Positions 19,423 through 36,758 of a DNA stretch of 64,000 bases are shown piece after piece. The position numbers and the translations under genes are program-made. The notes beneath the pieces are model-generated. The model ran no database searches, had not been told where the DNA came from, and was given only the letters and a program-made list of their open reading frames with translations. Numbering within the stretch: the stretch's first letter is position 1; each line of letters begins with the position of its first letter. Source of the stretch: Spirochaetia bacterium (GTDB lineage Bacteria > Spirochaetota > Spirochaetia > DSM-2461); assembly GCA_963668315.1 (NCBI GenBank), contig OY764216.1, positions 2,720,001 through 2,784,000 of the forward strand, read 5' to 3'.

Positions 19423-19428
19423 GGGAAT

Positions 19429-20815: not shown

Positions 20816-20851
20816 ACCTGTTCACCCCGCACTAAGGGTGGGCAGGTTTTT
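20816..20851 (+). terminator. Hairpin after SBP gene (terminator/stabiliser)
   Basis: ACCTGTTCACCC...GGGTGGGCAGGT + T-run. Confidence 0.65.
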
Positions 20852-20901
20852 CTTTATAGGGAACGTCACAGTTCTCTTCCCCCATCGATAATCTGGAGAA
20901 A

Positions 20902-21798
20902 TTGACTATGAGAAAAAAATTATCCTCCTGGCTGGATAACGAATCCCATCTGGCCTGGACGATTCTTATTCCCGCTTTACTGCTTCTTTTGGTTTTTGCC
21001 TACTTTCCCGCCGTACAATCATTCCGGTTCAGCCTGCTTAAGTATAATCTCAAGCTGCCTAATCAGATTCATTTCGTGGGACTGGATAATTATATATATG
21101 TGCTAAAGGACCCCGTATTCCGCACATGCGTGATCAGGGTACTCTATTTTATGGTCGTCGCGACCGTTTCGGTCCTCTTTCTCTCTCTCTGCTTCGCCCA
21201 GGTGCTCAATCAGGAGTTCAAAGGGAAGGGGCTTCTGAGGGCCATTGTCATCATTCCCTGGGCCATACCCCCTGTTGTTAACGGCCATCTCTGGAAATGG
21301 ATCTTCAACGGCGATTACGGAGCTCTGAACGGTTTGCTTTACCAGTTCGGCATCATCAAGGACTATCACTACTGGCTGAATGATCCTACCGTAGCCATTA
21401 ATATGGCTGTCTTTCTGTTTGTCTGGCGGTATACTCCTTTCATCACCATCCTGTTCCTGGGAGTTCTCCAGTCCATCCCGGAGCAGATATATGAGGCCGC
21501 GAAAGTAGACGGGGCGGGAGCATTCAGGCGTCTTTACTCCATAACCATTCCGTTCCTCTCCCAGATCGGGGGAATCGCCGTGGTTCTGACCCTCGTCGCC
21601 AGCTTCAATGTTTTTGATGATATCTATGCGCTTACCGAATTCAGCGAGCTGACCAAAACCCCCATGATATACAACTATGAGTTAACCTTTGACATGGGCC
21701 GTTTCGGCAAAGGCTCGGCCATGGCCTACACGGTGGGACTCTTCCTGTTCCTTCTCACCCTTGTCTATATAAAACTCAGTTTCAAGGAGGACAAGTGA
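20902..21798 (+). CDS. Sugar ABC permease
   Basis: FVGLDNY, IIPWAIPP, EAA motif YEAAKVDGA. Confidence 0.93.
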   Translation: MTMRKKLSSWLDNESHLAWTILIPALLLLLVFAYFPAVQSFRFSLLKYNLKLPNQIHFVGLDNYIYVLKDPVFRTCVIRVLYFMVVATVSVLFLSLCFAQVLNQEFKGKGLLRAIVIIPWAIPPVVNGHLWKWIFNGDYGALNGLLYQFGIIKDYHYWLNDPTVAINMAVFLFVWRYTPFITILFLGVLQSIPEQIYEAAKVDGAGAFRRLYSITIPFLSQIGGIAVVLTLVASFNVFDDIYALTEFSELTKTPMIYNYELTFDMGRFGKGSAMAYTVGLFLFLLTLVYIKLSFKEDK

Positions 21799-22664
21799 TG
21801 AGAACGAAAATACCGGGCAAAATCCTTCTGGCCATTATGGTTGTCCTCATTCTTTTCTGGTCCCTGGCTCCTCTCTTCTGGATTTTCATCTCATCCATCT
21901 CTCCGAGAACCGAGCTGTATTCCGTTCCGCCCCACTGGTTTCCCCATCAGCCCACGCTGGAAGCCTATAAAAAGGTTCTGATCACCGGTGAGAGCTTCAG
22001 AGGAGGGGACGGCATCGCGGCGGCCCAGCTTTTCAGAAAGGGAATCACCAATTCCCTCATCGTTTCCATCATAACCACGGCAATGGTCATGTTTTTTGCT
22101 CCTCTCCTGGGGTACGCCTTTTCCCGATTGCGATTCAAGGGGAAGAATCTGTTCTTCTACCTGATCATCGGCATCATCGCCTTGCCTTCCTGGCCGGTTC
22201 TGATAGGATTGTTTTCTGAGTTCAGCTATCTTCATCTGCTCGATACGAAGCTGGGGCTGATACTGCTGTCCTTCACCTTCAGGCTTCCCTTTGAAACCTG
22301 GTTCATGAAGGGGTACTTTGAAGCGGTTCCCTCGGAAATCGAGGATGCCGCCAGAATCGACGGCTGCACGAGGCTGCAGACCCTGACCAAGGTATGTATC
22401 CATATGGTCATGCCCGGGCTTATTGCCGTATCGATCGTTTCTTTCCTTCATACGTGGAATCTTTTTTCCGGACCGCTGGTCCTGACGTATACATTGAAAT
22501 CCAAGCCCCTGACCGTTACCATGACCGAGTTTATCGGACAGTACTATGTTCACTGGGACTTGATGACCGCAGCGACGATTCTGGCGATTATCCCGCCGGT
22601 TCTGATTGTTATCTTCTTTCAGAAGTATATCATCCAGGGGCTTTCGTCCGGCGCCATCAAATAA
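21795..22664 (+). CDS. Sugar ABC permease
   Basis: GYAFSRLRFKG, EDAARIDGC, FFQKYIIQGLSSGAIK. Confidence 0.93.
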   Translation: MMRTKIPGKILLAIMVVLILFWSLAPLFWIFISSISPRTELYSVPPHWFPHQPTLEAYKKVLITGESFRGGDGIAAAQLFRKGITNSLIVSIITTAMVMFFAPLLGYAFSRLRFKGKNLFFYLIIGIIALPSWPVLIGLFSEFSYLHLLDTKLGLILLSFTFRLPFETWFMKGYFEAVPSEIEDAARIDGCTRLQTLTKVCIHMVMPGLIAVSIVSFLHTWNLFSGPLVLTYTLKSKPLTVTMTEFIGQYYVHWDLMTAATILAIIPPVLIVIFFQKYIIQGLSSGAIK

Positions 22665-22666
22665 AA

Positions 22667-22712
22667 AAAGTCACACCTGAATACTACTGTCTGTAGGCAG
22701 GTGTGACTCTTT
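22667..22712. terminator. Bidirectional terminator between convergent operons
   Basis: AAAAGTCACACCTG...CAGGTGTGACTCTTT inverted repeat with A/T flanks. Confidence 0.75.
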
Positions 22713-22741
22713 CCGCAGGGATCGACCCGTCTGGAACGCTC

Positions 22742-23863
22742 TTAGCCCATCCTCTCCCCATTCACAAAAACATACTCAAGAGCACTCAGGCTATGGAGCG
22801 GATTTCCGTCAAAAATCAGGATATCCCCGTCTTTTCCCTCCTTCAGGGAGCCGATCCGGCCGTCCAGCCCCAGGGCCCTTGCCGGATTGATGGTCATCGC
22901 TTCCAGGGCCGCTCTTTCGCTGACCCCTTCCCTGACAAAGAGGCAGGCGGAGAGATGAAACAGTTCGACCGATATATCGGGGTGATGGGTGGAAAGGCAG
23001 AAGGGAATACCCTCTTTCTCCAGAAGGGCGGCATGATTGTCCCGCCGGTTGAGCAGGTATTCGAAGGAGCCGTCTTCCAGAAGGGACGTCAGAACCAGGG
23101 GAGTACCCTTTTTCTTCAGTCTCTCCACAAGAGAGGGGTATTCCACAACTCCATCCAGTATGAGGGACAAGTCCAGCTCTTCCGCCAGGTCAAGGGCCGA
23201 AAGGATATCCTGCTCCTGGGCAGCGGTCAGCTTCAGAGGAACCTGTTTCTTCTGAAGCGCTTCTATGACGGATCTTTCCGCCTGGCTGATCTGACGGGGC
23301 TGGCTGTGCTCTGAATCCTGCAGGGTCAGGGCGTCGCGGAGTCCCCGTGCCAGTCCCATGCGGGAAAGGGGGCTGAAACGGACTTTGTCATAATCGTTTT
23401 TGGCCCTGTTGCCCATGGTGCCGTGCATATCGGCATAGGCGCTGATCACCCGGTCTTCCGGGTTGGTGCCGGCTAGCGCCGTTTTCAGGGCACAGCTCTG
23501 ACCGCCGAGGGGACGGTTATAGGGCGAGTTCACCACCACCGTGGTAACGCCGTTTTTCCAGGCCTTTTCAAAGTACTCATCCCGCCAGTTGATGCCGTTT
23601 ATCATTTTGGCTGTAGCCTGGTATTTATCGGAAGGGGGAACTCCCATTCCTTCGGAGAGGCGGTGACCGGCGTCCATAAGGCCCAGATTGGTGCTTATGT
23701 CGACAAATCCGGGAACAACCGATTTACCCTTAAGGTCCAGCATCTCTTCGTTTCCGGCGGCTAGATTCTGCCCCAGAGCGGCAATCTTCCCGTCTCTGAT
23801 CAGCAGATCACCCCGGAAAGGGGCGTCTTCCGCGGTATATATCAAACCGTCTTTCAGCAGCAT
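22742..23863 (-). CDS. Amidohydrolase-family protein with degenerate metal ligands
   Basis: Starts MLLKDGLIY; PGFVDISTN in place of PGxIDAHxH; C-terminal TINPARALGL..GSLKEGKDGD. Confidence 0.85.
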   Translation of the reverse strand: MLLKDGLIYTAEDAPFRGDLLIRDGKIAALGQNLAAGNEEMLDLKGKSVVPGFVDISTNLGLMDAGHRLSEGMGVPPSDKYQATAKMINGINWRDEYFEKAWKNGVTTVVVNSPYNRPLGGQSCALKTALAGTNPEDRVISAYADMHGTMGNRAKNDYDKVRFSPLSRMGLARGLRDALTLQDSEHSQPRQISQAERSVIEALQKKQVPLKLTAAQEQDILSALDLAEELDLSLILDGVVEYPSLVERLKKKGTPLVLTSLLEDGSFEYLLNRRDNHAALLEKEGIPFCLSTHHPDISVELFHLSACLFVREGVSERAALEAMTINPARALGLDGRIGSLKEGKDGDILIFDGNPLHSLSALEYVFVNGERMG

Positions 23864-25032
23864 TGGATTTTTCCTTTGTCTTCGGTATAAACCAGCTTTC
23901 CTCCCAGGAAGGTATGGCGGCAGCGGCTGCGCATCTCCAGGGGCGATCCGTCGAAAACCGCGATATCGGCGATTTTCCCGATGTCCAGGGAGCCCCGCTC
24001 GCTGTCGATCTCCAGCGCCCTGGCCGGGTTGCGGGCGATCGTGTACAGCGCATCCTTCCATGACATCCCGCCCTTATGAAGAAGGCCTGCCTGGGGACCC
24101 AGATAAAGCCCATTGGCAAAGGGATGGTCGGAAATGAGGGAGACGGAACAGCCTTTTTCGGTCAGAACAAGGGGGTTCATGACAGACTTGTTGCGCAGTT
24201 CCTCTTTTGTTTTAAACATGAAAAGGGGACCGGTGAGCAGGGGAATCTGTTTCTCCGCCAGCACGTCGGCAATCAGATAACCTTCGGTACAGTGATCCAG
24301 GGTGATGCGGATAGGGTAGGGTTCGGTTAACCGGATGGCCGTTAGGATGTCGTCGGCCCGATGGCAGTGGATTTTCAGTGGGATTTCCCCGTTGAACACG
24401 GGCATGAAGATTTCCCAGAAGGGCTTCCGCTCTTCCGGTACCCGTTGTTCCCGGCCCCGCCAGTACTGGTAGGCCTCTTCCAGAGTCTCTTCCAGAACCC
24501 GGGCATTGCCCATGCGGCTGGCGGGGGATTTCCCCTCCGGCCCGTAGACGGAGATCGGGTTTTCCCCCAGGGCGGCCTTGAGGGCCTTGTAGGGATGGAG
24601 GGTCATCTCTTTTGCCGTGGCGCCGTAGGGCTGTATGAGGGCGGCCTGGCCTCCCAGCAGGTTTCCGCTTCCCGGGGGAAGCATCATCGTTGTCAGACCG
24701 CAGGAGAGGGACTTCCTCATATCCGGATCGGCCGGATTGATCCCATCGACGGCCCGGACGCCGGGCGTGATGGGGGCGGAGCATTCGTTGGAGTCGTTGC
24801 CGAGGGGGCGGGATACCCAGGTACCCATATGGCTGTGGGCGTCAATGAGACCGGGAAAAATCTGCATGCCCTTCACATCGATGACGCTGTCGAGCTCTCC
24901 TTCCCAGTGTTTATTCAATTCGCCCCGGGGAACCAGGGCGGCGATTCTCTCTCCCTCTATCAGAAGATCCAGGGGAAGGAATTCCCCCGGAGCGTCCTGA
25001 AAAACCTCTCCTCCGGAAAGAAGGGTCGTCAT
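23854..25032 (-). CDS. Metal-dependent amidohydrolase
   Basis: PGLIDAHSHMG, KAALGENP, IHCHRADD, LDHCTEG, ISDHP, GKIADI. Confidence 0.92.
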   Translation of the reverse strand: MTTLLSGGEVFQDAPGEFLPLDLLIEGERIAALVPRGELNKHWEGELDSVIDVKGMQIFPGLIDAHSHMGTWVSRPLGNDSNECSAPITPGVRAVDGINPADPDMRKSLSCGLTTMMLPPGSGNLLGGQAALIQPYGATAKEMTLHPYKALKAALGENPISVYGPEGKSPASRMGNARVLEETLEEAYQYWRGREQRVPEERKPFWEIFMPVFNGEIPLKIHCHRADDILTAIRLTEPYPIRITLDHCTEGYLIADVLAEKQIPLLTGPLFMFKTKEELRNKSVMNPLVLTEKGCSVSLISDHPFANGLYLGPQAGLLHKGGMSWKDALYTIARNPARALEIDSERGSLDIGKIADIAVFDGSPLEMRSRCRHTFLGGKLVYTEDKGKIQCC

Positions 25033-25035
25033 AGG

Positions 25036-26292
25036 CTATTCTCCCGAACCTATCAGGTCCAGAATCATTCCCCCGTAAATTTTTGCGGAGTTGACCACGT
25101 CTTCGATGTCCACGTCTTCGTTGTACGAGTGGATTCCCGCCGTGTTGGCAGGACCGTACTGAATGGTGGGGATTCCCGCTTCCCGGTAGCATCGGGCGTC
25201 GCTGGAGGCCCACTGATAGGCGGGAACGATCGGTTCTCCCCATACGGCCAGGGCGTTATCCATGACCGTTTTGACAAGAGGTTCGTCCACATCGGTATAG
25301 TTGGCCCCGGAGGTCCATTTCATGTCATAGCTGATATTCTCGATACCCTGCTCTTCGGCAATGGAGAAGAACTCCTCCCTGACCCTATCCATCTCCAGGC
25401 CGATGGGAATACGGATGTCCACTTCCATTTCGCAGTAGTCGGCCACCATATTGGTCTTGGTGCCCCCCTTGATGGTTCCCGGATTGACCGTGACGTGGTC
25501 TATGATATTCTCCACACCATCGGTACCCTGGGCCTCCCGAGCGATTCTCTTGGAGTCGGCTAATACGGGGAGCTGCTTTTCCGTGAAGTTTCCCGTCATG
25601 GATTCAAGCTTTTCAAGGCCGGCGATGAACTTCATCATCTCCCGGATGGCGCTGACCCCCTTGTACTTGCCCAGGCTCCCGTGGGCAGACTGGCCCTTGA
25701 TCATAACCTTGCCCTGGAAGGTGCCCTTCTGGCCCACTTCGCAGTTGTTGGAAGAGGTGGGTTCCGCCACGATAACGCAGGAGGCGTTTTTGGCGTACCC
25801 GTGGTCAACCAGCCATTGGGTTCCCAGATGACCGCCGGTTTCCTCATCGGGAACGACGTGAAGGCTTACCTTACCCTTGAGCTCGGTCTTCTGTTCCGCC
25901 AGGAGGCGGATGACGAAGAGGGCGCCGGCGAGACCGCACTTCATATCCGAGGCGCCCCGGCCGCGGATGACTTTATCGGTGATCTCTCCGCCGTAGGGAT
26001 CGAAGTCCCACTGGCTCCGGTCGCCGGCGGGAACCACGTCGGAGTGGCCGTTGAACAGCACTTCGGGGCCGTCGGCTTTGCCGTAGGATGCCAGGATATT
26101 GGGATGGGCCTCATCCTGTCCCACAATGGTATAATCCACGCCGCCCTTTTTCAGGTAATCGGTAATATAGGCTGTTACCGCTTCCATCTCTCCGGGGGGA
26201 TTTTCGCTGGGGATCTGGAGCAGTTCGGAGCAGAGGGTTATGAGATCGCTTTTCTTCTCTTCGATCAGATCCCGTATTTCTTGTTTCGTCAT
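25036..26292 (-). CDS. M20 metallohydrolase (ArgE/DapE family)
   Basis: NGHSDVVP, GRGASDMKCG, PDEETGG, VAEPT, AHGS, SDAR, GIHSYNE. Confidence 0.93.
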   Translation of the reverse strand: MTKQEIRDLIEEKKSDLITLCSELLQIPSENPPGEMEAVTAYITDYLKKGGVDYTIVGQDEAHPNILASYGKADGPEVLFNGHSDVVPAGDRSQWDFDPYGGEITDKVIRGRGASDMKCGLAGALFVIRLLAEQKTELKGKVSLHVVPDEETGGHLGTQWLVDHGYAKNASCVIVAEPTSSNNCEVGQKGTFQGKVMIKGQSAHGSLGKYKGVSAIREMMKFIAGLEKLESMTGNFTEKQLPVLADSKRIAREAQGTDGVENIIDHVTVNPGTIKGGTKTNMVADYCEMEVDIRIPIGLEMDRVREEFFSIAEEQGIENISYDMKWTSGANYTDVDEPLVKTVMDNALAVWGEPIVPAYQWASSDARCYREAGIPTIQYGPANTAGIHSYNEDVDIEDVVNSAKIYGGMILDLIGSGE

Positions 26293-27272
26293 AGTTGTTT
26301 TCCTTCTTCCGGAAAATGACAGGCTGTCCTGTGTTCTCCGTTGATAGTCTGCAGTTCGGGGGCTTTCTGGCGGCAGATGTCCCGGCTCAGGGGACAGCGT
26401 GTCGACAGGGGGCAGCCGGGGGGCAGATTCAGGGGGCTGGGCAGTTCGCCTTCCAGAATATTATCTTTTTTCTCTTCAAAGGGACTTTCGGGAGGTATGG
26501 AAGCGAATAGGGCTTTGGTATAGGGATGGCAGGGATCTTTATATACCTGATCTGCCGGTCCTTCCTCCACGATAAATCCCAGATACATGATTATCAGCCT
26601 GTCGCTGATGTATTTTACAACACTCAAATCGTGGGAGATAAACATATAGGTAAAGCCGTGTTTCTTCTGGAGCCGTGCCAGCAGGTTGATCACCTGGGCC
26701 TGCACCGACACATCCAGGGCGGACACGGGCTCGTCACAGACGATGAATTCCGGTTCCAGCGCCAGGGCACGGGCAATGTTGATACGCTGCCTCTGGCCTC
26801 CGGAGAATTCGTGGGGATGGCGATGGGCATGTTCCTTCACAAGGCCCACTTCCTCGAGCAGCTGGTAGACCCGCTTTTCCCGTTCGGCCCGATCGTACAT
26901 CTTGTGGATGACCATGGGCTCTTCGATCAGCTGGAACGTCGTTTTCCTGGGATCGAGGGAGGAGTAGGGGTCCTGGAAGATAATCTGCATATCCTTGCGA
27001 AGGCTTTTCATCTCCCCCTTGTTCCTGCCCAGGATCTCTTGATCCTTGAATTTGACAGAACCGTCCCGTGAGGGAATCAGGTTCAGGAGGGCTTTCCCCA
27101 GGGTGGACTTTCCGCAGCCCGACTCTCCGATAACGCCGAGGGTCTCCCCCTTGCGTACTTCGAAATTCACCTTGTTCACCGCTTTCAGAACGCGGCTTTT
27201 CTCAAAGATCGATTTGCTTTTTATATCGTAGACCGTGGTCAGGTCTTTTACTTTTAAGAGGCTATCACTCAT
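26289..27272 (-). CDS. Oligopeptide ABC ATPase (OppF/DppF-like)
   Basis: GESGCGKST, FSGGQRQR, CDEPVSALD, C-terminal Cys cluster. Confidence 0.95.
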   Translation of the reverse strand: MSDSLLKVKDLTTVYDIKSKSIFEKSRVLKAVNKVNFEVRKGETLGVIGESGCGKSTLGKALLNLIPSRDGSVKFKDQEILGRNKGEMKSLRKDMQIIFQDPYSSLDPRKTTFQLIEEPMVIHKMYDRAEREKRVYQLLEEVGLVKEHAHRHPHEFSGGQRQRINIARALALEPEFIVCDEPVSALDVSVQAQVINLLARLQKKHGFTYMFISHDLSVVKYISDRLIIMYLGFIVEEGPADQVYKDPCHPYTKALFASIPPESPFEEKKDNILEGELPSPLNLPPGCPLSTRCPLSRDICRQKAPELQTINGEHRTACHFPEEGKQL

Positions 27273-28290
27273 CTCGGGAATCTCCTTTCCGGGTCAGGCC
27301 GGGCCCTTCGCCCTGAAAATGACAGGCCGCCCAGTGGCCGGGAGCCACCTCTTTCAGTCCGGGAGTGCTGTTGAAGCAGATATCCTGACGGTAGGGACAA
27401 CGCTCGCAGAACACGCAGCTCTCTTCGCCCGGTTCCTGATCGGAGGCAATCGTGTCGATAACGGCCAGGGGCTTGGAGATGTCCTGGCTCATCCGGGGAA
27501 CAGAATCGAGAAGACCCCAGGTATAGGGATGGACCGGATTCGTATAAAGGTCGCCCACGCTGGCGTGCTCCACGGTTTTTCCCTTGTACATGACCATGAC
27601 GGAGGTACAGATATCCCAGATAACCCCGATATTATGGGTTATGATCATAATGGGTGTTCCCAGTTTTTTCTGAAGCGATTTGAGAAGCTCCAGAACCTGG
27701 GACTGGACCGTCACATCCAGAGCCGTGGTGGGCTCGTCGGCGATAATCACCTTCGGTTCGCATACGATGGCCATGGCGATGATAACCCTCTGGCGCATCC
27801 CGCCGGAATACTCGTGGGGATAGCTGTCGAGACGGGATTCCGCATCGGGGATTCCCACCATCCGCAGCGCTTCCACGGCTTTCGCCCGGGCTTCGGCTCC
27901 TTTCAGCCCCAGGTGGGTCTCGATAATCTCCAGCATCTGCTGGCCGATGGTGAACACCGGATCGATGGAGGTCATGGGATCCTGAAAGATCATGGAGATG
28001 TCCTTGCCGCGCAGCTTCTGCATCTGTCTTTCGTTCAGATCGAGCAGATTCTTATCCTGGAAGAGGACTTTTCCCGATTCGATTTTGCCGGTGGGCTTGG
28101 GAACGAGTTTCATGACCGACAGGGCGGTCATGCTCTTACCCGAGCCGGATTCGCCCACGATTCCCAGGGTTTCCCCTTCGGACAGGGTAAAGCTGACGCC
28201 GTCTACGGCTTTCACCGTGCCCCGGGTCGTATGGAAATAGGTTTTCAGATCTTCTACGGAGAGAAGAGTTTCCTTTTTTATCTCACTCAT
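27265..28290 (-). CDS. Oligopeptide ABC ATPase (OppD/DppD-like)
   Basis: GESGSGKS, YSGGMRQR, ADEPTTALD. Confidence 0.95.
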   Translation of the reverse strand: MSEIKKETLLSVEDLKTYFHTTRGTVKAVDGVSFTLSEGETLGIVGESGSGKSMTALSVMKLVPKPTGKIESGKVLFQDKNLLDLNERQMQKLRGKDISMIFQDPMTSIDPVFTIGQQMLEIIETHLGLKGAEARAKAVEALRMVGIPDAESRLDSYPHEYSGGMRQRVIIAMAIVCEPKVIIADEPTTALDVTVQSQVLELLKSLQKKLGTPIMIITHNIGVIWDICTSVMVMYKGKTVEHASVGDLYTNPVHPYTWGLLDSVPRMSQDISKPLAVIDTIASDQEPGEESCVFCERCPYRQDICFNSTPGLKEVAPGHWAACHFQGEGPGLTRKGDSRDE

Positions 28291-28293
28291 GGA

Positions 28294-29157
28294 TTACCTC
28301 TTCATCTTGGGATCCATAATATCCCGGATACCGTCGCCCAGCAGGTTGAATCCCAATACGCTGATCAGGATAAACATACCGGAAATCGTGGCGATATGGG
28401 GGGCCGTGTTCAGCGTGTCCTTGCCGGCCCGGAGGATATTTCCCCAGGAGGCCTGGGGAGGCTGTATTCCCATTCCCAGAAAACTGAGGGCCGCTTCGGA
28501 AATGATGGCCCCCGCGATATTGAGGGTTATGTAAACAATGACCGGCGAGAGGATATTGGGCAGGATGTGCCGGAACAGAATCCGGCTTCCCGAACCGCCA
28601 ATCGCCTCGATGGCCTTGCAATACTCTTCGTTTTTGGCAATATGCACCTGGCCGCGGACGATGCGGGCGCAGCCGGGGATATTGGCGATGCCGATGGCCA
28701 GGATCACGTTCTTCAAGCCGTCGCCCAGTACGGTCATCAGAACAATGGCCAGGAGGACGAAAGGGAAGGCGAACATGCCGTCCATGAAGCGCATGATGAC
28801 CGTGTCGACCCATCCGCCCTTGTAGCCGGAAAGGAGTCCCAGGAGGATTCCGACCACGGCGCCTACCAGTGTCCCTCCGAAGGCGACCACGATGGAGACC
28901 CGGGCGCCGAAGAAAATGCGGCTCAGGATGTCCCGGCCGAACTCGTCGGTTCCGAAAAAGTGGTGGGGAGATCCCGGTTTGGCGAACATATTGGCCAGGT
29001 CCATCTCGTCCGGTTCGTAGGGACTGATCAGGGGGGCGGCCGCGGCGATGAATACGATGGCAATGACGATGAAGAAGCCGAAAAGGGCCGTCTTATTTCT
29101 CAGAAGCATCTGCCAGGGTGTATTGGTATTTTTTTCTCTTATCTTTTTTTCTTTCAT
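28294..29157 (-). CDS. Oligopeptide ABC permease (OppC-like)
   Basis: HFFGTDEFGRD, RHILPN, EAALSFLG, FNLLGDG. Confidence 0.95.
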   Translation of the reverse strand: MKEKKIREKNTNTPWQMLLRNKTALFGFFIVIAIVFIAAAAPLISPYEPDEMDLANMFAKPGSPHHFFGTDEFGRDILSRIFFGARVSIVVAFGGTLVGAVVGILLGLLSGYKGGWVDTVIMRFMDGMFAFPFVLLAIVLMTVLGDGLKNVILAIGIANIPGCARIVRGQVHIAKNEEYCKAIEAIGGSGSRILFRHILPNILSPVIVYITLNIAGAIISEAALSFLGMGIQPPQASWGNILRAGKDTLNTAPHIATISGMFILISVLGFNLLGDGIRDIMDPKMKR

Positions 29158-29169
29158 GATAATATCCCG

Positions 29170-30138
29170 TTATCCCTTGGTATTGCTGTAGGACACTTTG
29201 GGATTGATGACCATATAGATCATATCGACGACCAGGTTGATCACCACATAGATAATGGCGATAAACAGGACAGCCCCCTGGATCAGCAGGTAGTCGCGGT
29301 TTTCAATGGCGTCGTAGATGAGTCTGCCCATGCCGGGCCAGCTGAAAATGGTTTCCGTTAAGATAGCGCCGGCCAGAAGGTAGGAAATCTGCATTCCTAT
29401 CACCGTGAGAATGGGGGGGAAGGCGTTTTTCAGAGCATGCTTCCAGATAACGATGGATTCCTTGATCCCCCGGGCGCGCAGAGCTTTGACATAATCCTGA
29501 TTCACCACTTCCAGCATGCTGGCGCGGGTGATACGGGCGAAGGTGGCCATGGGAATGGTGGCGAGGCAGAAGCCGGGAAGGATCATATGGCTGATGACGT
29601 CTCCCAGGCCGTACTGCAGGCTTCCCATGCCCAGGGCGGGAAGCCAGGCCAGGTTGACGCTGAATACGAGAACCAGCATCAGGCCCAGCCAGAAAATCGG
29701 CATGGAAACCCCCACCAGGGCGAGCATCATGGCGACATAGTCAAACAGAGAGTACTGTTTCGTCGCCGAGATGACCCCGACGGGAATTCCCACCAGAGAT
29801 GCCAGGAACAGGGCAAAAACACTTAAAAGCAGGGTATTGGGAAATTTCTCGAGAATCAGTTTGGTTACCGGTTCGCTGTAGGCATAGGATGTGCCGAAGT
29901 CTCCCCGGACTACGTTTTTCAGATACATAAGGTACTGAATCCCGATATTCTTATCCAATCCCAGTTCCGTCTTAAGGTCGGCCACCGCATCGGCCGAGGC
30001 CTGGGGCCCCAGCATGGTCATCGCCGGATCGCCGGGAATCATCCTGGTGATCACGAAAATGATGGTGGATACGATCAGCAGTATGGGAATCAATTGCCAG
30101 AGCCGCTTTAAAAATGTCTTTATTACTATTCCTGTCAT
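29170..30138 (-). CDS. Oligopeptide ABC permease (OppB-like)
   Basis: IPGDP, GDFGTS, KHALKNA, ETIFSWPGMG. Confidence 0.95.
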   Translation of the reverse strand: MTGIVIKTFLKRLWQLIPILLIVSTIIFVITRMIPGDPAMTMLGPQASADAVADLKTELGLDKNIGIQYLMYLKNVVRGDFGTSYAYSEPVTKLILEKFPNTLLLSVFALFLASLVGIPVGVISATKQYSLFDYVAMMLALVGVSMPIFWLGLMLVLVFSVNLAWLPALGMGSLQYGLGDVISHMILPGFCLATIPMATFARITRASMLEVVNQDYVKALRARGIKESIVIWKHALKNAFPPILTVIGMQISYLLAGAILTETIFSWPGMGRLIYDAIENRDYLLIQGAVLFIAIIYVVINLVVDMIYMVINPKVSYSNTKG

Positions 30139-30145
30139 GTTTTAT

Positions 30146-31738
30146 TTATTCTTCTATGGATACGTTAATCTCGGGGGAAACGATAGTGATCGTGTTGTCC
30201 GAGCTGGTGTGGAATCCCTGAACAGCCTGATTGAAACCGTAGATAACTTTCTCATTGGAGTAGTTGATCCGGGCGTACTGCTCAACGATCAGCTTGAGGG
30301 CCTTCTGGTAAAGGGCCTTTCTCTCCTGAAGATCGGAAACGATCAGAGCTTCGTCAAGAAGGGCGTCCACTTCGGGGCTGTTGAATCCCTGGCCGTTACC
30401 GAGAGCACCGATTTCGGAACTGTGGAACATCTTGTTCAGGAAGAAGAAGGGGTCGGGATACCAGGTCCAGGACATGCCGTACATATCGGCCTTACCGCTG
30501 GAAGCCACTTCGCTGAAGGTTCCCCATTCGGTGGTCTTGATGTCCAGGTCGATATTGAGGTTCTTCTTGAGGTAAGCCTGAATGATGGTGGTCATCTTCA
30601 CACGGGCGGGCTTGTTGGTTACGTAGACGGACAGGGTGAAACCGCCGTCGGGGTATCCGGCCTCGGCCAGAAGTTTCTTGGCTCCTTCCGGATCGTACGC
30701 GGGAATGAGAGATTCCAGGGAAGCGTCGTAGCCCCAGGATCCGGGAGGAAGGGGAAGGTAGGCTCTTTGGGCTTCGCCGTTGGGATAGATTCCCTTGAGC
30801 ATCGTGTCGATGTCGATAGCCTTGATGATGGCTTCACGGACACGGATGTCGGCGGTGGGGCCGTGCATCAGGTTCATGTAAAGGTAAGCCACGTGGAGAC
30901 CGGGAACTTCCTGGATATCCAGAGCGGGGTTCTCTTGGACGAGCTGAACGTTCTCTCCGCCCAGGTCGGTGGCCACGTCGATTTCGCCGCTTCTCAGGGC
31001 GTTGATCATCTGGTTCTGATCGGAGATGAACTTGAAAACGACGCCGTCGAGGTTGGCCTTGGGGCCCCAGTAGTTGTCGTGGCGGACGAGGATGGCTTCC
31101 TGGTCGTTCTTGAAATCCTGGAGAGCGAAGGGACCGGTTCCGACAAGGTGAGTGTTAAAGCTGTCTCCCCATCCTTCCACATCTTCCGGGGAAACGATAA
31201 CGTTGCCCGCGTCGGTCAGAACCGTCAGGAAAGCGGCGTTGGGGGTGTCGAGGATACATTTAACGGTATATTTGTCTACCACTTCGGCGGATACGAGCAT
31301 GCTTAGTCTGTTCATGGCGGACTGTTTGGCCGAACGTTCAAGAGAGTAGGCCACATCTTCGGCAGTCATGTTCTTGCCGTCCTGGTATGCGCTTTTCTGG
31401 AAGTAAGCGTCCTCTCTGAGTTTAAAGGTGTATTCCGTACCGTCTTCGCTTACCGTCCAGCTTTCGGCCAGGGCGGGAACGATGTCGGAAAGATCCTTGT
31501 TGTAAGCGACTACCGTATCGGCAACGCTTCTGATGATGTTGCTTTCGTAGACGCCGGTGTACTTGATGGGATCCAGATTCTTAGGAACCGATGCCAGAGC
31601 CAGGGTGAGTACGTTACCCCGGCCTTTTCTGGAAATACTGTCGGCCTGGGCCGCGGAATCGCCTTCCCCTGCGCCGTTGGCGTACAGGGAAGCGAAACTA
31701 AGAATGGCAGTGAGAATTAACATTCCTACTTTCTTCAT
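30146..31738 (-). CDS. Family-5 (peptide-type) solute-binding protein
   Basis: Signal peptide; PALAESWTVSEDGTEYTFKLR, GTGPF, YWG; AGGAG SD. Confidence 0.93.
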   Translation of the reverse strand: MKKVGMLILTAILSFASLYANGAGEGDSAAQADSISRKGRGNVLTLALASVPKNLDPIKYTGVYESNIIRSVADTVVAYNKDLSDIVPALAESWTVSEDGTEYTFKLREDAYFQKSAYQDGKNMTAEDVAYSLERSAKQSAMNRLSMLVSAEVVDKYTVKCILDTPNAAFLTVLTDAGNVIVSPEDVEGWGDSFNTHLVGTGPFALQDFKNDQEAILVRHDNYWGPKANLDGVVFKFISDQNQMINALRSGEIDVATDLGGENVQLVQENPALDIQEVPGLHVAYLYMNLMHGPTADIRVREAIIKAIDIDTMLKGIYPNGEAQRAYLPLPPGSWGYDASLESLIPAYDPEGAKKLLAEAGYPDGGFTLSVYVTNKPARVKMTTIIQAYLKKNLNIDLDIKTTEWGTFSEVASSGKADMYGMSWTWYPDPFFFLNKMFHSSEIGALGNGQGFNSPEVDALLDEALIVSDLQERKALYQKALKLIVEQYARINYSNEKVIYGFNQAVQGFHTSSDNTITIVSPEINVSIEE

Positions 31739-31829
31739 TTCTTACTCCTATTATAATAGTTTGGGGCATATGCCCCGGATATCAAGAGAGAGAATTGGTA
31801 TTTTTTCTCCTATGATATGAATGAAAGAG

Positions 31830-31870
31830 ATATTGCCGTAAAAAAAAACTTAGAACAATGTGCAATTGCC
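31830..31870 (-). promoter_or_regulatory. opp operon promoter with activator box
   Basis: Minus strand GGCAATTGCACA-TTGTTC-17bp-CAATAT. Confidence 0.6.
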
Positions 31871-32027
31871 TATTCCCTGGGCGACAATGAAATGGGGCAA
31901 AAGCTTCCTCCGCGATTCAATAAAATGATATTTGCTTAAAATCCGAAGAATATCTCTCTAGAAGGGATTGATTCCCCCGCCGTTCAATTAATAACAGCCT
32001 CAGGAGATAGTCTTATGGGATATTCGG

Positions 32028-32040
32028 AATGTGCAAATGC
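32028..32040. promoter_or_regulatory. Third copy of AATGTGCA box
   Basis: AATGTGCAAATGC, 12/13 match to the copy at 31857. Confidence 0.5.
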
Positions 32041-32130
32041 TTAATAAAATCCGTGATAATTTTGGCGAAACGGCAATGGTTTGCCGTTAAGTTAGGGCGG
32101 ATATCCCTAGGAAAGGAGGGGGGAAGAGTC

Positions 32131-32202
32131 ATGAATCATGGAAAAATCCCTCCTCCTTATCCCCGGGAGAATCCTCTCCTGCCGTATGTCCCGGGGATAT
32201 AA
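32131..32202 (+). CDS. Possible Pro-rich small ORF MNHGKIPPPYPRENPLLPYVPGI
   Basis: AAGGAGGGGGG upstream; 7 of 23 codons Pro; may be a by-product of hairpin sequence. Confidence 0.3.
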   Translation: MNHGKIPPPYPRENPLLPYVPGI

Positions 32203-32204
32203 GT

Positions 32205-32244
32205 GGCAACTGCACATTGCATAAATATTCCCGATTGACAATAT
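32205..32244 (+). promoter_or_regulatory. aroM promoter with activator box (leaderless)
   Basis: GGCAACTGCACA-TTGCAT-16bp-CAATAT, ATG follows after 7 nt. Confidence 0.6.
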
Positions 32245-32251
32245 TTAAGCC

Positions 32252-32938
32252 ATGAAACTTGGAATACTGACCATCGGTCAATCCCCGAGAGTCGACTTGA
32301 CGAAGGATATCCTGCCTCTTCTGAAGGAAGGGACGGAAGTCGTAGAGAGGGGAGCTTTGGATAATCTGGACAGGGCGGCTGTGGAGAAACTGGCCCCCGT
32401 CGAAGAAGGGCATCTCCTCGTGACCCGCATGAAGGACGGCTCCCAGGTCAGGCTGGCGGAGGAGAAGCTGCTCCCTCTCATGCAGGAGGGGATCGACTTT
32501 CTGGAAGGGAAGGGATGTTCCATCATCCTCCTTCTGTGTACCGGAGAGTTTCCTCCCTTCAGGCACAGCGCCCTTCTTATCCGGCCGCAGGAACTGCTGA
32601 ATCAGGTCGTCGGTCTTATAGCCGACGGACTTCCCCTGGGCGTGATGGTTCCCGACAGCAGACAGATCTCCCAGGCTCGGATGCGCTGGGAGGGAAAAAC
32701 CGCCCGTCTTTCCCTTGCGTCCGGTTCTCCCTACCTGGATAGGGAAGGGATCAGAGATGCGGGGTTCCGGCTGAAAGAAGCGTCACCCTCTCTGATTTTT
32801 CTGGATTGCATGGGCTACACCGTTGAGATGAAGAAAATTGTTGAGAAGATAACCGGAGCCCGGGTCATTCTTCCCCGAACGCTGATAATAAGAATTATCA
32901 ATGAACTGCTGGAGTCAGACCGGCAGGATGAAAAATAG
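32252..32938 (+). CDS. AroM-family protein
   Basis: LTIGQSPR.D, RGALD, LVTRMKDG, LLCTGEF, ASGSPY, LDCMGY. Confidence 0.88.
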   Translation: MKLGILTIGQSPRVDLTKDILPLLKEGTEVVERGALDNLDRAAVEKLAPVEEGHLLVTRMKDGSQVRLAEEKLLPLMQEGIDFLEGKGCSIILLLCTGEFPPFRHSALLIRPQELLNQVVGLIADGLPLGVMVPDSRQISQARMRWEGKTARLSLASGSPYLDREGIRDAGFRLKEASPSLIFLDCMGYTVEMKKIVEKITGARVILPRTLIIRIINELLESDRQDEK

Positions 32939-33009
32939 CAGGGAGTGCCGGGATATGTCCCGGCTGTCCCGAATACTGATAAATCAAAAATATAAAATAA
33001 GGAATTGAC

Positions 33010-33942
33010 ATGCTAATCAAACAGGTAATCGAATTATTTGATCTTCTGGACAGCCCCTCGGCCAGCGGAAACATTATAAAGGATTTTTTCCAGACCCGGG
33101 ATATCAATGACGTGACTATCACCGAATTGAAGGGATCCAAAGGAACGACAGACTGCATCAAAGTCGTTATTAATGGCAAGAACGGCCGCAGTTCCGGCGG
33201 ATCGGTTCCCACGCTGGGGATTATCGGCCGTCTGGGAGGGCTGGGTGCCCGTCCCGAGATGATCGGTTTTGTATCCGATGGAGACGGGGCTCTGGCGGCT
33301 CTGGCGGCGGCTCTCAAGCTGGGCGAGATGCACAGCCGCGGCGATATCCTGGAGGGTGATGTCATCATCACGACCCATATCTGCCCCGATGCCCCGACCC
33401 TGGAGCACTATCCCGTTCCCTTCATGAACTCTCCCATCAGCATGGATCAGATGAATGAAGAGGAGATTGACCCCGCCATGGAAATGATCCTCTCCATTGA
33501 TACGACCAAGGGAAACGAAATCATCAATGTAAACGGCATCGCCCTTTCGCCCACGGTGAAGGAAGGATATATTCTTCCCGTCAGTTATGATCTTCTCAAT
33601 GTCATGAAAAGGGTAACCGGTTCGAAACCGGACGTTTTCGCCCTCTCTACCCAGGATATTACCCCCTACAGCAACGAAATGCCCCACGTAAACAGCATTC
33701 TCCAGCCGGCGACGGCGACCAAAGCCCCAGTCGTCGGAGTGGCGGTAACCACGGAAAGTCCCGTTGCGGGATGTGCCACGGGGGCCACCAGCTTCATCAG
33801 CGTTGAACAGGCGGCCCGTTTTGTCGTGGAAGTGGCAAAGGATATCAGCAAGGGAATCTGCTCCTTCTACAGCGAAGACAACTTCCGGGAACTGATCTCC
33901 CGCTACGGCTCAATGGAACATTTGAGCAACCCCGGTAAATAG
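33010..33942 (+). CDS. DUF1177-family protein
   Basis: PTLGIIGRLGGLGARP, GFVSDGDGA, THICP, SIDTTKGN, QDITPY, NSILQP, GCATGA. Confidence 0.82.
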   Translation: MLIKQVIELFDLLDSPSASGNIIKDFFQTRDINDVTITELKGSKGTTDCIKVVINGKNGRSSGGSVPTLGIIGRLGGLGARPEMIGFVSDGDGALAALAAALKLGEMHSRGDILEGDVIITTHICPDAPTLEHYPVPFMNSPISMDQMNEEEIDPAMEMILSIDTTKGNEIINVNGIALSPTVKEGYILPVSYDLLNVMKRVTGSKPDVFALSTQDITPYSNEMPHVNSILQPATATKAPVVGVAVTTESPVAGCATGATSFISVEQAARFVVEVAKDISKGICSFYSEDNFRELISRYGSMEHLSNPGK

Positions 33943-33950
33943 TTCTCTCC

Positions 33951-33999
33951 AGAGACTTCCTTCCCTTTTGTTGACGGGGAGGGGAGTCTCTTTTTTTTT
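33951..33999 (+). terminator. Intrinsic terminator
   Basis: AGAGACTTCCTTCCC...GGGGAGGGGAGTCTCT + T-run. Confidence 0.8.
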
Positions 34000-34000
34000 C

Positions 34001-35503
34001 TCAGGACTCCACGGAATAGATTAGGTCCAGTTTTAATCCCAGCTGCATTACCAGAATGCCTTCCTGGCTTTTCAGGTCCAGGCTGGTAAGAGATTTGATC
34101 TTCTCCATCCGCTGGTACAGGGTGTTTCTGTGGATCCCCAGCTCTTCGGATGCTTCGGATATGTGAAACTCCTTCCTGGCCAGAATATCCATGGTCTTCA
34201 GCAGATTCTCATTGTATTCGGCATCGTTCTTTCTCAAAGTCAGAATCGTGTTGTTATAGAGCCTCTGAAGAATCGGATTATCCTTCTGCCCGATAAGGAA
34301 GTGGTAGAGGAGCAGATCGTTGAAGGTGAGGAATTTCTTGCTGTGGGGAAAGAGGGACTGACCGACCCGCAGGCTGAACAGGGCGTCCTGGTAAGCCATG
34401 CGGAGGTCAAACAGATCCTGGTAGGCCCGACTGTTTCCGACGACGCACTCCAGCTGGGGATAATTCCTCTCAATTCTGTCCATCAGGGCGAATACCCGGT
34501 TGGCGGCAGTGGCATCGCTCTCATCGCCCTTCTCGTGGATGGAGATGACCTGCTCCTGGTCAAAGAGAAAATAGTTGTCCGGAAAAGCCTTCTCGCACAG
34601 ATGGATAATCACATCGGGGTTATGGACGGACCTGTTGAAGTTCCTCAGCTTCAGAATCCAGATATACCGTAATCCCTCAAAGGGAATATGGTAGATGTCG
34701 CACTCCTTCTTGACCCCGTCCCTGTGGGAAATCAGCCCGTAGATGATGCTCATGAGGAATTCGCTTTTTTTCTTCTTCTCCTGCACGGGCAGACGGGAAT
34801 CGCCGATGCGCGCCATGAGAAGATAGGGCCTGAGCAGTTTCCGCTGCAGGATATCGGGAGCCATATTCGTCGGGAGAGCCTGGAAGAACACATAACCCGA
34901 AACGTGTCCGTAGGACATCATAACGTAGCCGTACCATCTGCTTGTATCATGATGAAAGAGTATTTCCTCCGTGCCTGTACCCGAAAAGGAGAGTTCGTTG
35001 TCCAGATGGACCGACCAGTCCTGGAAGGGAATGGACAGGGGCCTGTTGACCCTCGTGTCGGTTAAGAGCCTCTTGTCCTGCCCCAGGATTATCAGGTCAA
35101 TTCCTGTAACGGCCATGACAAGGGAGCAGGTATTGACCAGGTTGAAATGGGAGCTGCCGCTCAGGTTGTTCAGCGACTCCTTCAGTTCATCGAAGAGGGA
35201 GTCCGGATCATCGGGATCGATTAACTCTTCCGGAGTGGAGGCAAAGCGCAAGGCTGAGCGGAAGGGCTGTAATATTTTCTCAATCTCATCCTGCCTTTCC
35301 GGCTGGACATTGACAATGACGGTGGATCTGATCTCTTTGATCTTGAAGAATTCCATGGCGGAAAGCAGCTCTTTCCCTGTGAAGAAGAGGGGGAAAAGGC
35401 AGACGCTGCAGGAGGGGGTCAGACGATTGAGATCGGCCGGGGTAAAAACGATCCGGATATCTTTTTTGGGAATAAACGGTCTGTGGCTCTCCTCGGTACT
35501 CAT
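34001..35503 (-). CDS. PucR/CdaR-family transcriptional regulator
   Basis: C-terminal HTH ASEELGIHRNTLYQRMEKI..LDL; GGDEF-like central region. Confidence 0.85.
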   Translation of the reverse strand: MSTEESHRPFIPKKDIRIVFTPADLNRLTPSCSVCLFPLFFTGKELLSAMEFFKIKEIRSTVIVNVQPERQDEIEKILQPFRSALRFASTPEELIDPDDPDSLFDELKESLNNLSGSSHFNLVNTCSLVMAVTGIDLIILGQDKRLLTDTRVNRPLSIPFQDWSVHLDNELSFSGTGTEEILFHHDTSRWYGYVMMSYGHVSGYVFFQALPTNMAPDILQRKLLRPYLLMARIGDSRLPVQEKKKKSEFLMSIIYGLISHRDGVKKECDIYHIPFEGLRYIWILKLRNFNRSVHNPDVIIHLCEKAFPDNYFLFDQEQVISIHEKGDESDATAANRVFALMDRIERNYPQLECVVGNSRAYQDLFDLRMAYQDALFSLRVGQSLFPHSKKFLTFNDLLLYHFLIGQKDNPILQRLYNNTILTLRKNDAEYNENLLKTMDILARKEFHISEASEELGIHRNTLYQRMEKIKSLTSLDLKSQEGILVMQLGLKLDLIYSVES

Positions 35504-35657: not shown

Positions 35658-36758
35658 TCAGTTCTTCCTGAATATCCCTTCCGCGGCCCTTTTCTCCACC
35701 ACATTGAGAACCAGGGGCTGGGAGAGATCATCCTGGCTCTGCTGCCAGGTGACATAATACTTATCCCCGAATTCCAATACGTCCGCGTATCGGCTCGTTC
35801 TCATGCCCATGGGGCTCAGGAAAGAAGGTTTGTATCGGGAAATCCTTTCGAAGGTGGTCACATCCTCGTTTGAGATAACGGCGAGTCCTCCGATCTCTTC
35901 GCAGGAGAATCCCCGCGGCCTTTTCACGGCGCCGGCATGTTCGTCCAGCTGTCTGAGCGATTCCCCGCCGTCATAAAAGAGGGCGGTGATTTTTTCATCC
36001 GATTCAACGGGGAGATCAATCAGGGAGGTCCCCCGGGTGATGGCCACATCCCAGGTATTGCCCCGGGGGAAAATGTTGTATGACGCCCTTCGGAACTTCT
36101 TCTCTCCCCGGGGACGCACCATGAACCCCGTATCGGAGGAGCTCCAGCAGAAGGGGTGATGGCAGAAGAGAAGCCAGGTGTCTCCGTTCTCGCAGTCATA
36201 GACGAAGGGGTCTTTCACATTGATGGTGGTGAGATCTTCGCTGCGATGGATTTCTCTGACCGGGGAGTTCTGGAGCTTCTCAACGGAGGGGGCGGATTTA
36301 TAATCGATGCTCCATATACCCGTTCCCGGTTTCAGGTAATCGGCGAACTCCCCCGTATAGACGCGTCCCTTCTTCTCTGTGGAGATGAACAGTTCCACGT
36401 CTCCTCCCGCCGTTCTGTGCAGGGCGCATCCTTCTATGGAGAGCACTTCCAGATCACCCACGTTCAGGTCTGCCTTGTTCATGGATACGACTTTTTTCCA
36501 GTTCTTCCCTTCGTCGTCCGATCGCCAGATGGCCAGTTCGCAGCCCCTGGTTCCCAGTTTCACTCCCGTTCGGGAATCACCGCCGCTGCGGTAGCGGCCG
36601 CAGACGTAAAGACTGCCTTTCCACTCTATCATGTTGCCGCCTCCGAACCAGAAGCCGCTCTTCTGTTCCTGGGCGGGAATGATGACAGAAGCCTTTTCCT
36701 GGTCCATCAGCAAAGCGCCGAACTGTTCTATCTTCTCTGTCAGCTGTTTGTCTATCAT
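35658..36758 (-). CDS. Uncharacterised Asp-box/beta-propeller protein, glycoside-hydrolase-like
   Basis: Asp-box WRSDDEGKNW, VKDP motif; divergent from sugar ABC operon. Confidence 0.65.
   Translation of the reverse strand: MIDKQLTEKIEQFGALLMDQEKASVIIPAQEQKSGFWFGGGNMIEWKGSLYVCGRYRSGGDSRTGVKLGTRGCELAIWRSDDEGKNWKKVVSMNKADLNVGDLEVLSIEGCALHRTAGGDVELFISTEKKGRVYTGEFADYLKPGTGIWSIDYKSAPSVEKLQNSPVREIHRSEDLTTINVKDPFVYDCENGDTWLLFCHHPFCWSSSDTGFMVRPRGEKKFRRASYNIFPRGNTWDVAITRGTSLIDLPVESDEKITALFYDGGESLRQLDEHAGAVKRPRGFSCEEIGGLAVISNEDVTTFERISRYKPSFLSPMGMRTSRYADVLEFGDKYYVTWQQSQDDLSQPLVLNVVEKRAAEGIFRKN

What the first reader, a model, noticed from the sequence alone, without database searches (positions are those of the whole stretch)
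22742..35503. Candidate undescribed catabolic system: Opp-type importer + M20 + amidohydrolase pair, co-regulated with AroM and DUF1177 by a PucR-family regulator
Seen: an 8-gene minus-strand operon (SBP, 2 permeases, 2 ATPases, M20 hydrolase, two amidohydrolases) is divergent from aroM-DUF1177, followed by a PucR/CdaR gene. The module is bounded by a terminator on the left, and both promoters share a box. Knowledge: to my knowledge neither AroM nor DUF1177 has an established function. Inference: AroM's two Cys motifs (LLCTG, LDCMG) resemble the two-Cys sites of Asp/Glu/hydantoin racemases. DUF1177's VSDGDGA..AAALKL..EGDVIITTH resembles a Zn-exopeptidase core. Together this suggests import, amide hydrolysis and racemisation of an unusual (D-, N-acyl or cyclic) amino acid or peptide.
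Basis: partly seen in the sequence, partly recalled or inferred. Interest (0 to 1): 0.82.

Follow-up and report, generated by a model that had tools for sequence, protein, structure and literature searches.

The report
Salvage cluster for peptidase-resistant dipeptides
Eleven linked genes encode a peptide importer, a two-cysteine racemase-like protein, four hydrolase-like proteins (one lacking its catalytic metal site) and a regulator with a conserved three-site DNA box; they likely let the cell salvage mirror-image or ring-closed dipeptides that ordinary peptidases cannot cut, but no substrate has been shown.

Summary
Real and conserved, but a variant of a widespread module that this scan has already noted in at least 11 other genomes. 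All 11 genes are present. pucR is on the minus strand, convergent with DUF1177. AroM has two invariant cysteines and a hydantoin/Asp/Glu-racemase fold; that likeness is already in print (PMC11055893). DUF1177 has a Zn-exopeptidase fold (Z 17), but the first His and the Glu-Glu metal ligands map to Arg74 and Ala-Pro, so it is not a canonical M20/M28 peptidase. New here: (1) the Opp + DapE-like M20 + amidohydrolase-pair form recurs whole in a Clostridia genome; (2) the second amidohydrolase lacks its metal ligands in 3 of 3 orthologues; (3) a TGTRYA-N2-TGCAYA box abuts both -35 elements, with one central copy 171 and 173 bp from each, matching a 170-bp spacing in relatives; (4) PucR-DUF1177 fusions have lost conserved DUF1177 residues, suggesting that DUF1177's substrate is the inducer. 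Best reading: uptake, epimerisation and hydrolysis of D-residue or ring-closed dipeptides. Substrate, co-induction and regulator binding are untested. Interest 0.5.

The parts
22662..22715 (.). Bidirectional terminator-like hairpin ending the minus-strand operon
   Evidence: z -5.1 (-) and -4.7 (+); 0 of 200 shuffles fold as well
22742..23863 (-). AH2: amidohydrolase-fold protein without metal ligands (HxH reads S-x-N; beta5/beta6 His and beta8 Asp lost); likely a non-catalytic partner of AH1
   Evidence: Pfam; ligands absent in 3 of 3 orthologues; start and SD overlapping the AH1 stop
23854..25032 (-). AH1: metal-dependent amidohydrolase of the PDB 3OOQ type; H66, H68, K152, H222, H247, D302 present
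   Evidence: 3ooq E 2e-69; these residues invariant in 52 of 52 clade members; ligand roles recalled from the superfamily
25036..26292 (-). ArgE/DapE-family M20 metallohydrolase with H83, D85, D116, E150, E151, H388
   Evidence: TIGR01910 above cut-off; DapE structures nearest; alignment
26289..27272 (-). OppF/DppF ABC ATPase
27265..28290 (-). OppD/DppD ABC ATPase
28294..29157 (-). OppC/DppC permease
29170..30138 (-). OppB/DppB permease
30146..31738 (-). Family-5 solute-binding protein; nearest solved relatives are DppA/HbpA-type dipeptide binders
   Evidence: below every NCBIfam equivalog cut-off
31830..31872 (-). Predicted promoter of the importer operon: box A (31859-31872) abutting -35 TTGTTC, 17 bp, -10 CAATAT
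   Evidence: conserved island 31829-31874 in a related contig; start site not mapped
32030..32043 (.). Central box B (TGTGCAAATGCTTA), 171 bp from A and 173 bp from C; likely a shared distal regulator site
   Evidence: best-scoring intergenic site under a matrix trained on relatives; no listed change in the related contig
32203..32251 (+). Predicted aroM promoter: box C (32203-32216) abutting -35 TTGCAT, 17 bp, -10 AATATT; no SD, so likely leaderless
   Evidence: weak palindrome score (3.3 bits); leaderless start is inference
32252..32938 (+). AroM: predicted two-cysteine (C96, C186) racemase/epimerase
33010..33942 (+). DUF1177: Zn-exopeptidase-fold protein with a non-canonical site (conserved D90, D92, H123, D164, D216, H226); predicted hydrolase
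33951..34000 (+). Terminator-like hairpin with U run between the convergent DUF1177 and pucR genes
   Evidence: z -2.9 on +, -1.4 on -
34001..35503 (-). PucR/CdaR-type regulator, predicted activator of both arms; likely leaderless
   Evidence: 54% orthologues beside DUF1177 in G007 and G020; best hits in 399 Clostridia lie by the module; -10 just upstream of ATG in G007 and G020

Best explanation
The cluster is likely a PucR-activated salvage pathway that imports small dipeptide-type compounds resistant to ordinary peptidases (carrying a D-residue, or ring-closed as diketopiperazines), likely inverts their alpha-carbon with AroM and likely hydrolyses them to free amino acids with DUF1177, the M20 enzyme and an AH1/AH2 amidohydrolase. 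Shown: gene content, folds, conserved residues, conserved linkage, the box and its spacing. Inferred steps: (1) the DppA-like binding protein captures the compound; (2) DUF1177, the one enzyme common to all forms of the module, performs the committed amide cleavage with a non-canonical Asp/His site; (3) AroM epimerises a D-residue by a two-cysteine, two-base mechanism; (4) M20 and AH1 (with AH2 as a structural subunit) cleave the resulting L-dipeptides or N-acyl intermediates; (5) the PucR protein, bound at the central box and at the boxes abutting each -35 element, activates both divergent promoters when a pathway compound is present.
For: AroM: C96 and C186 invariant in 120 of 120 homologues and 46 of 46 locus copies. 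They align with both Cys of hydantoin racemase 2eq5; top folds are hydantoin, allantoin, Asp and Glu racemases. DUF1177: M20/M42/M28/M17 fold, Z 17, rmsd 3.5 over 233 residues. Of 69 DUF1177 loci, 42 carry AroM, 42 an OPT or Opp transporter (33 of 42 long loci) and 48 an M20, M29-like or DUF917 hydrolase. Unrelated stereo-inverting and odd-peptide enzymes turn up beside DUF1177: alanine racemase with a DppA-like D-aminopeptidase (L031), an MslH-like epimerase (L036), PepE (L051; 2 of 5 plasmid loci read). A DUF1177-AroM fusion and two PucR-DUF1177 fusions exist; the latter change H123, D164, K167 and N169. The full 11-gene set occurs in G859. The box recurs twice, 170 bp apart, in all four promoters examined in G007/G020, and once upstream of the G859 operon.
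Against: No substrate is shown for any member; my literature searches found no biochemical study. The DppA and MslH matches are below their curated cut-offs. The cyclic-amide partners (hydantoin-racemase-like protein, module-type DUF917, nitroreductase) are absent from this locus. DUF1177 lacks the canonical metal ligands, so it could be non-catalytic. The amidohydrolase pair is accessory: 1 of 69 loci and 1 of 80 broad-family amidohydrolase loci. A similar box lies upstream of an unrelated operon in genomes without DUF1177, and PucR-bearing loci L001, L036 and L064 show no convincing box at their module promoters (best scores at most 5.9, except one 12.1 site in L036). Many of the 69 loci are close kin.
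Confidence: 0.55

Rival explanations
1. A hydantoin-type (hyu-like) pathway: a cyclic ureide or purine-derived ring is racemised by AroM, opened by AH1 and the N-carbamoyl product cleaved by M20.
For: AroM's nearest folds are hydantoin and allantoin racemases; the amidohydrolase + M20 + racemase trio mirrors hyu operons (recalled); PMC11055893 favours hydantoin/allantoin-like substrates for related clusters; other DUF1177 loci carry NCS1 permeases or hydantoinase/oxoprolinase genes.
Against: The importer is a peptide-type ABC system; AH1 scores only 27 bits against D-hydantoinase (cut-off 393) and the M20 is of DapE type, not allantoate amidohydrolase; peptidases dominate the partner list.
Confidence: 0.17
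2. Salvage of damaged aspartyl peptides specifically (D-Asp, isoAsp or succinimide dipeptides, or cyclo-Asp-X).
For: PepE, which is Asp-X specific (recalled), sits in three DUF1177 operons and an aspartoacylase-family gene in a fourth; AroM keeps three conserved arginines R13, R59, R209; G000's other 3OOQ-type amidohydrolase follows a beta-aspartyl-peptidase-like gene.
Against: PepE occurs in 1 of 69 GTDB loci and in no copy in G000 at E 1e-3; nothing in this locus points to Asp.
Confidence: 0.13
3. DUF1177 is a non-catalytic ligand-binding or accessory subunit, and the cluster degrades N-acyl amino acids or opine-like conjugates with M20 and AH1 alone.
For: Canonical ligands are lost; DUF1177 serves as a domain of regulators; M20 is an ArgE/DapE-type deacylase; opine-binding proteins are among the SBP hits.
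Against: Stand-alone DUF1177 conserves D90, D92, H123 and D164 in over 90% of 122 sequences, and the regulator-fused copies lose H123 and D164, the pattern expected when an enzyme becomes a sensor.
Confidence: 0.1
4. The two arms and pucR are chance neighbours with unrelated functions.
For: Gene order varies between genomes, and G459 has no aroM or pucR match in the 33 kb read.
Against: The full set recurs in G859; the DapE-like M20 lies with Opp and DUF1177 in 13 of 69 loci; box and spacing are conserved.
Confidence: 0.03

Closest known systems
Non-CDPS cyclodipeptide-oxidase-like gene clusters (Andreas and Giessen 2024, PMC11055893; passages read, supplements searched)
   Same: AroM called racemase-like by predicted structure; enriched with dipeptide/oligopeptide ABC or OPT transporters and peptidases; no function shown.
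   Different: This locus has no CDO-like flavoenzyme, DUF917 or PF01177 racemase. DUF1177 is absent from the main text and from the 11 searchable supplementary files (file 1, a picture PDF, could not be searched and may show it). It has a DapE-like M20, an active/inactive amidohydrolase pair and a definable operator.
Hydantoin utilisation (hyu) operons (recalled)
   Same: Two-Cys racemase + amidohydrolase + M20 hydrolase + transporter.
   Different: Peptide ABC importer; AH1 is of 3OOQ type, not a hydantoinase; M20 is DapE-like; DUF1177 is extra.
Dipeptide epimerase + dipeptidase + Dpp salvage sets such as B. subtilis dppABCDE-ykfABC and E. coli ycjG-mpaA (recalled)
   Same: Import, epimerise, then hydrolyse D-residue peptides.
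   Different: Those use an enolase-superfamily epimerase and M55, C40 or M14 peptidases on murein fragments; none of these families is in this locus.
Asp/Glu/hydantoin racemase superfamily (2eq5, 3qvj, 5b19)
   Same: Fold (TM 0.54-0.65) and both Cys positions.
   Different: 12-17% identity; own motifs TIGQSPR, CTG and DCMG; substrate unknown.

Membership tests
Asp/Glu/hydantoin racemase superfamily (AroM) | Pseudo-symmetric two-domain alpha/beta fold | tested here: met
   AF2 pLDDT 93; top Foldseek hits are racemases, E 5e-7
Asp/Glu/hydantoin racemase superfamily (AroM) | Two conserved cysteines at the catalytic positions | tested here: met
   C96 and C186 invariant; both align to the Cys of 2eq5 (E 0.005)
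Asp/Glu/hydantoin racemase superfamily (AroM) | Cysteines face each other across the cleft; racemase activity | not testable with these tools
   Model coordinates are not returned; no assay
Clan MH dizinc peptidases M20/M28/M42 (DUF1177) | Zn-dependent exopeptidase fold | tested here: met
   Z 17.0, rmsd 3.5, 233 aligned; Foldseek E 2e-7
Clan MH dizinc peptidases M20/M28/M42 (DUF1177) | His-x-Asp, Asp, Glu-Glu ligand set | tested here: not met
   Profile alignment to M20 (probability 34%) maps His to R74, the bridging Asp to D90 and Glu-Glu to A128-P129; no HxD or EE motif is conserved in the family. It may work like, but is not, a canonical member.
ArgE/DapE M20 deacylases (25036-26292) | Family score and metal ligands | tested here: met
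   TIGR01910 278 bits over 217.6; D85, E150, E151, H388 invariant in 17 aligned M20s; below DapE and ArgE equivalog cut-offs
Binuclear amidohydrolase superfamily (AH1) | HxH, Lys, His, His, Asp ligands | tested here: met
Binuclear amidohydrolase superfamily (AH2) | HxH, Lys, His, His, Asp ligands | tested here: not met
   absent in 3 of 3 orthologues
Hydantoinase / hyu operon | D-hydantoinase (TIGR02033) or allantoinase orthologue | tested here: not met
   27-42 bits against cut-offs of 358-393
Non-CDPS CDO clusters | CDO-like nitroreductase gene in the cluster | tested here: not met
   No nitroreductase hit in the locus; six 28-33% hits lie elsewhere in G000
PucR/CdaR regulators | GGDEF-like domain plus C-terminal HTH_30 | tested here: met
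   N-terminal part resembles unnamed clusters and weakly PF07905
PucR/CdaR regulators | Binds the box and activates | not testable with these tools
   needs a binding or reporter assay

The most novel reading that the evidence does not exclude
DUF1177 is the unidentified cyclic-dipeptide (diketopiperazine) ring-opening hydrolase, using a new Asp/His active site on the Zn-exopeptidase fold. AroM is a dipeptide epimerase, and the module is the general prokaryotic route for eating cyclic and D-dipeptides, sensed through a dead copy of the enzyme fused to PucR. Minimal Opp + M20 + DUF1177 sets occur in Paenibacillus, a genus reported to cleave diketopiperazines (PMC3852281).
Probability: 0.22. Interest if true: 0.85.

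Novelty: new variant of a known kind. Interest (0 to 1): 0.5.

Why it matters
AroM (present in E. coli) and DUF1177 (bacteria and archaea, including Haloferax volcanii and Sulfolobus acidocaldarius) have no demonstrated function. Bacteria are known to cleave cyclic dipeptides, and the 2013 study read here left the enzymes unidentified (PMC3852281). This locus is a compact form of the module with one binding protein, one regulator and a defined operator, so a ligand screen plus a reporter could name the substrate of two orphan families at once. It also offers a non-canonical active site on a well-known fold and an active/inactive amidohydrolase pair.

Tried and rejected
Sequence searches of AroM and DUF1177 against the PDB gave nothing significant; only the AroM profile reached 2eq5. 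The sigma-70 and terminator scans showed no excess over shuffles. A 23-codon Pro-rich ORF with a strong SD at 32131-32202 was rejected as a gene: it lies mostly in the stretch replaced by unrelated letters in a related contig. A distant G000 operon (DUF917, hydantoinase/oxoprolinase, NCS1 permease; C1:940281-944313) has a box ranking 6th genome-wide. I dropped it as part of this regulon: its orthologues occur in 8 of 60 relatives, none of them the 3 with DUF1177, and some carry a similar box. A metagenome scan with the AH1 alignment returned only distant family members (32-42%), with no recurring neighbours. No RNA holder listed. The DUF1177-AroM complex prediction could not be run, nor the VIA search for AroM (not completed) or the cluster look-up (switched off), so physical interaction stays open. 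The Atlas gave only DUF1177 itself. The scan's look-up by place found nothing.
Full report
Observation. Eight run on the minus strand from 31738 to 22742: a family-5 binding protein, two permeases, two ATPases, an ArgE/DapE-type M20 and two amidohydrolases. aroM and DUF1177 diverge from them on the plus strand. pucR is on the minus strand and converges on DUF1177. Hairpins close both ends. AroM and DUF1177 are single-copy in G000. The flanking genes (a sugar ABC set with AnmK- and MurQ-like genes on the left) are separate.

AroM. C96 and C186 are invariant in 120 of 120 homologues and in 46 of 46 copies from DUF1177 loci. A profile aligns both to the cysteines of the Pyrococcus hydantoin racemase 2eq5 (E 0.005). 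The model (pLDDT 93) matches hydantoin, allantoin, aspartate and glutamate racemases best. This likeness is already stated in PMC11055893 (passages read), which also says the family is uncharacterised. I could not measure the Cys-Cys distance.

DUF1177. The model (pLDDT 92) has the Zn-exopeptidase fold, about equally close to M20, M42, M28 and M17 enzymes (Z 15-17). A weak profile alignment to M20 (probability 34%) keeps the bridging Asp (D90) but puts Arg74 at the first His and Ala-Pro at the Glu-Glu pair. The family instead conserves S89, D90, D92, H123, D164, D216 and H226 in over 90% of 122 sequences (conservation is weaker in the 28 most divergent rows). It is therefore not a canonical dizinc peptidase. 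Two PucR-DUF1177 fusion proteins change H123, D164, K167 and N169 but keep D90 and D92. I infer that these residues are catalytic in the free enzyme and that its substrate or product is the inducer. A DUF1177-AroM fusion (P0242) links the two orphans.

Amidohydrolases and M20. AH1 is of the PDB 3OOQ type with a full ligand set. AH2 lacks the ligands here and in both orthologues aligned; its start overlaps the AH1 stop. I infer a non-catalytic partner subunit; binding was not tested. M20 keeps its ligands.

Neighbourhood. Of 69 DUF1177 loci from GTDB genomes (all counted, many truncated or related), 42 carry AroM, 35 an M29-like gene, 32 a hydantoin-racemase-like gene, 30 DUF917, 25 OPT, 18 OppB, 18 a nitroreductase, 13 a DapE-like M20, 3 a detectable PucR and 1 AH1. 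All 13 DapE-type loci have Opp and only 1 has DUF917 or the second racemase, so two forms exist and this window is the Opp/DapE form. G000 has no detectable M29-like, second-racemase or OPT partner. The amidohydrolase pair marks a sub-form. G859 has the whole set. G459 has the eight-gene operon and DUF1177 but no aroM or pucR match in 33 kb. 9 of the 51 best AH1 homologues share a contig length with a top DUF1177 homologue, against 0 of the next 68 (indirect, by length only). Of 8 AH1 hits in 399 Clostridia genomes, the two strongest are G859 and G459 (the search centre); of the six weaker ones I read two, and neither has the module. One of 80 distant amidohydrolase loci has it. Elsewhere DUF1177 sits with alanine racemase and a DppA-like gene, an MslH-like epimerase, PepE, S9 and PepT-like peptidases, or hydantoinase genes (5 of 7 plasmid hits read). 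The module is patchy near G000: 3 of 60 relatives, 0 of 3 in its genus and 2 of 400 in the phylum sample. In a FastTree tree of 90 sequences the window's protein groups with G007/G020, sister to clostridial proteins from amidohydrolase-bearing contigs (support 0.99). Lateral gain is plausible but was not formally tested.

Regulation. G007 and G020 carry a 54% identical PucR convergent on DUF1177 in a differently built operon. The 3 PucR hits in 399 Clostridia genomes lie beside the module (G859, G648) or beside an M29-like gene at a contig end (G488). Each of four promoters in G007/G020 has two TGTRYA-N2-TGCAYA sites 170 bp apart, the proximal one abutting a TTG -35 hexamer with a -10 17 bp on. 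A matrix built from those eight sites (pattern chosen after seeing the window) picks the window's three sites as the top three in the 513-bp gap, at 31859, 32030 and 32203, spaced 171 and 173 bp. The A-B pair is one of only 2 such pairs genome-wide, although site C alone is weak. A related contig keeps three islands around the three sites and replaces the DNA between them with unrelated sequence of the same length (113 for 112 and 98 for 99 bases). The best site in 20 kb of G859 lies upstream of its operon. I infer class-II activation with one shared distal site. Against this: similar boxes occur at an unrelated operon, and more distant PucR loci show no convincing box.

Mechanism. The recurring parts are a peptide importer, stereo-inverting enzymes of several unrelated families and varied amide hydrolases. 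The best reading (0.55) is salvage of D-residue or ring-closed dipeptides, with DUF1177 as the committed hydrolase, AroM as epimerase, and M20 and AH1/AH2 finishing. Rivals are hydantoin-type substrates (0.17), damaged aspartyl peptides (0.13) and a non-catalytic DUF1177 (0.10). PMC3852281 (abstract and first part of the Discussion read) reports diketopiperazine cleavage by Paenibacillus and Microbacterium without identifying enzymes. DUF1177 loci occur in Paenibacillus and Paramicrobacterium, a weak coincidence.

Novelty. Ten full-text searches found no functional study in the held library; the single DUF1177 hit is a fungal DUF paper seen only as a listing, and most subscription papers are not covered. 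Earlier notes of this scan describe the module in at least 11 genomes and supplied the paper lead and the cyclic-dipeptide idea; none held all of this form's terms. The hyu and ykf/dpp comparisons and the catalytic roles of residues are recalled. Verdict: a new variant of a known but uncharacterised kind, interest 0.5.

Noticed in passing
G000:C1:940281-944313 (L195): DUF917, hydantoinase/oxoprolinase and NCS1 permease operon with a box like the one here at 940147; similar boxes in relatives lacking DUF1177 suggest a related but separate regulator.
   Followed up: partly
G000:C1:4114987-4117361 (L194): A beta-aspartyl-peptidase-like gene (TIGR01975, 331 vs cut-off 331.25) directly upstream of a second 3OOQ-type amidohydrolase.
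   Followed up: partly
P0278, P0295 (733 aa): PucR regulators with a C-terminal degenerate DUF1177 domain, a likely enzyme-derived sensor.
   Followed up: partly
P0242 (532 aa): DUF1177-AroM fusion protein.
   Followed up: partly
window 32131-32202 (+): 23-codon proline-rich ORF behind a strong SD; not conserved in a related contig.
   Followed up: yes
window 35503 upstream; L081 17527; L079 2835: pucR has a -10-like hexamer 5-6 nt before the ATG and no SD in three genomes, so it is likely leaderless.
   Followed up: partly
window 17345-22664: MurQ-like and AnmK genes divergent from a sugar ABC importer, probably anhydro-muramic acid recycling; separate from the module.
   Followed up: no
window 35658-36758 (-): 366-aa protein with only a weak BNR/Asp-box hit, next to another sugar ABC operon; possibly a beta-propeller glycosidase.
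   Followed up: no
L099, L101, L103: Tandem arrays of three or more 3OOQ-type amidohydrolase genes.
   Followed up: no
L031 16705-17601; L085 2529-3764: Histidine-utilisation-like genes lie near DUF1177 in two loci (HutI over cut-off in L085; the L031 gene named from recall).
   Followed up: no
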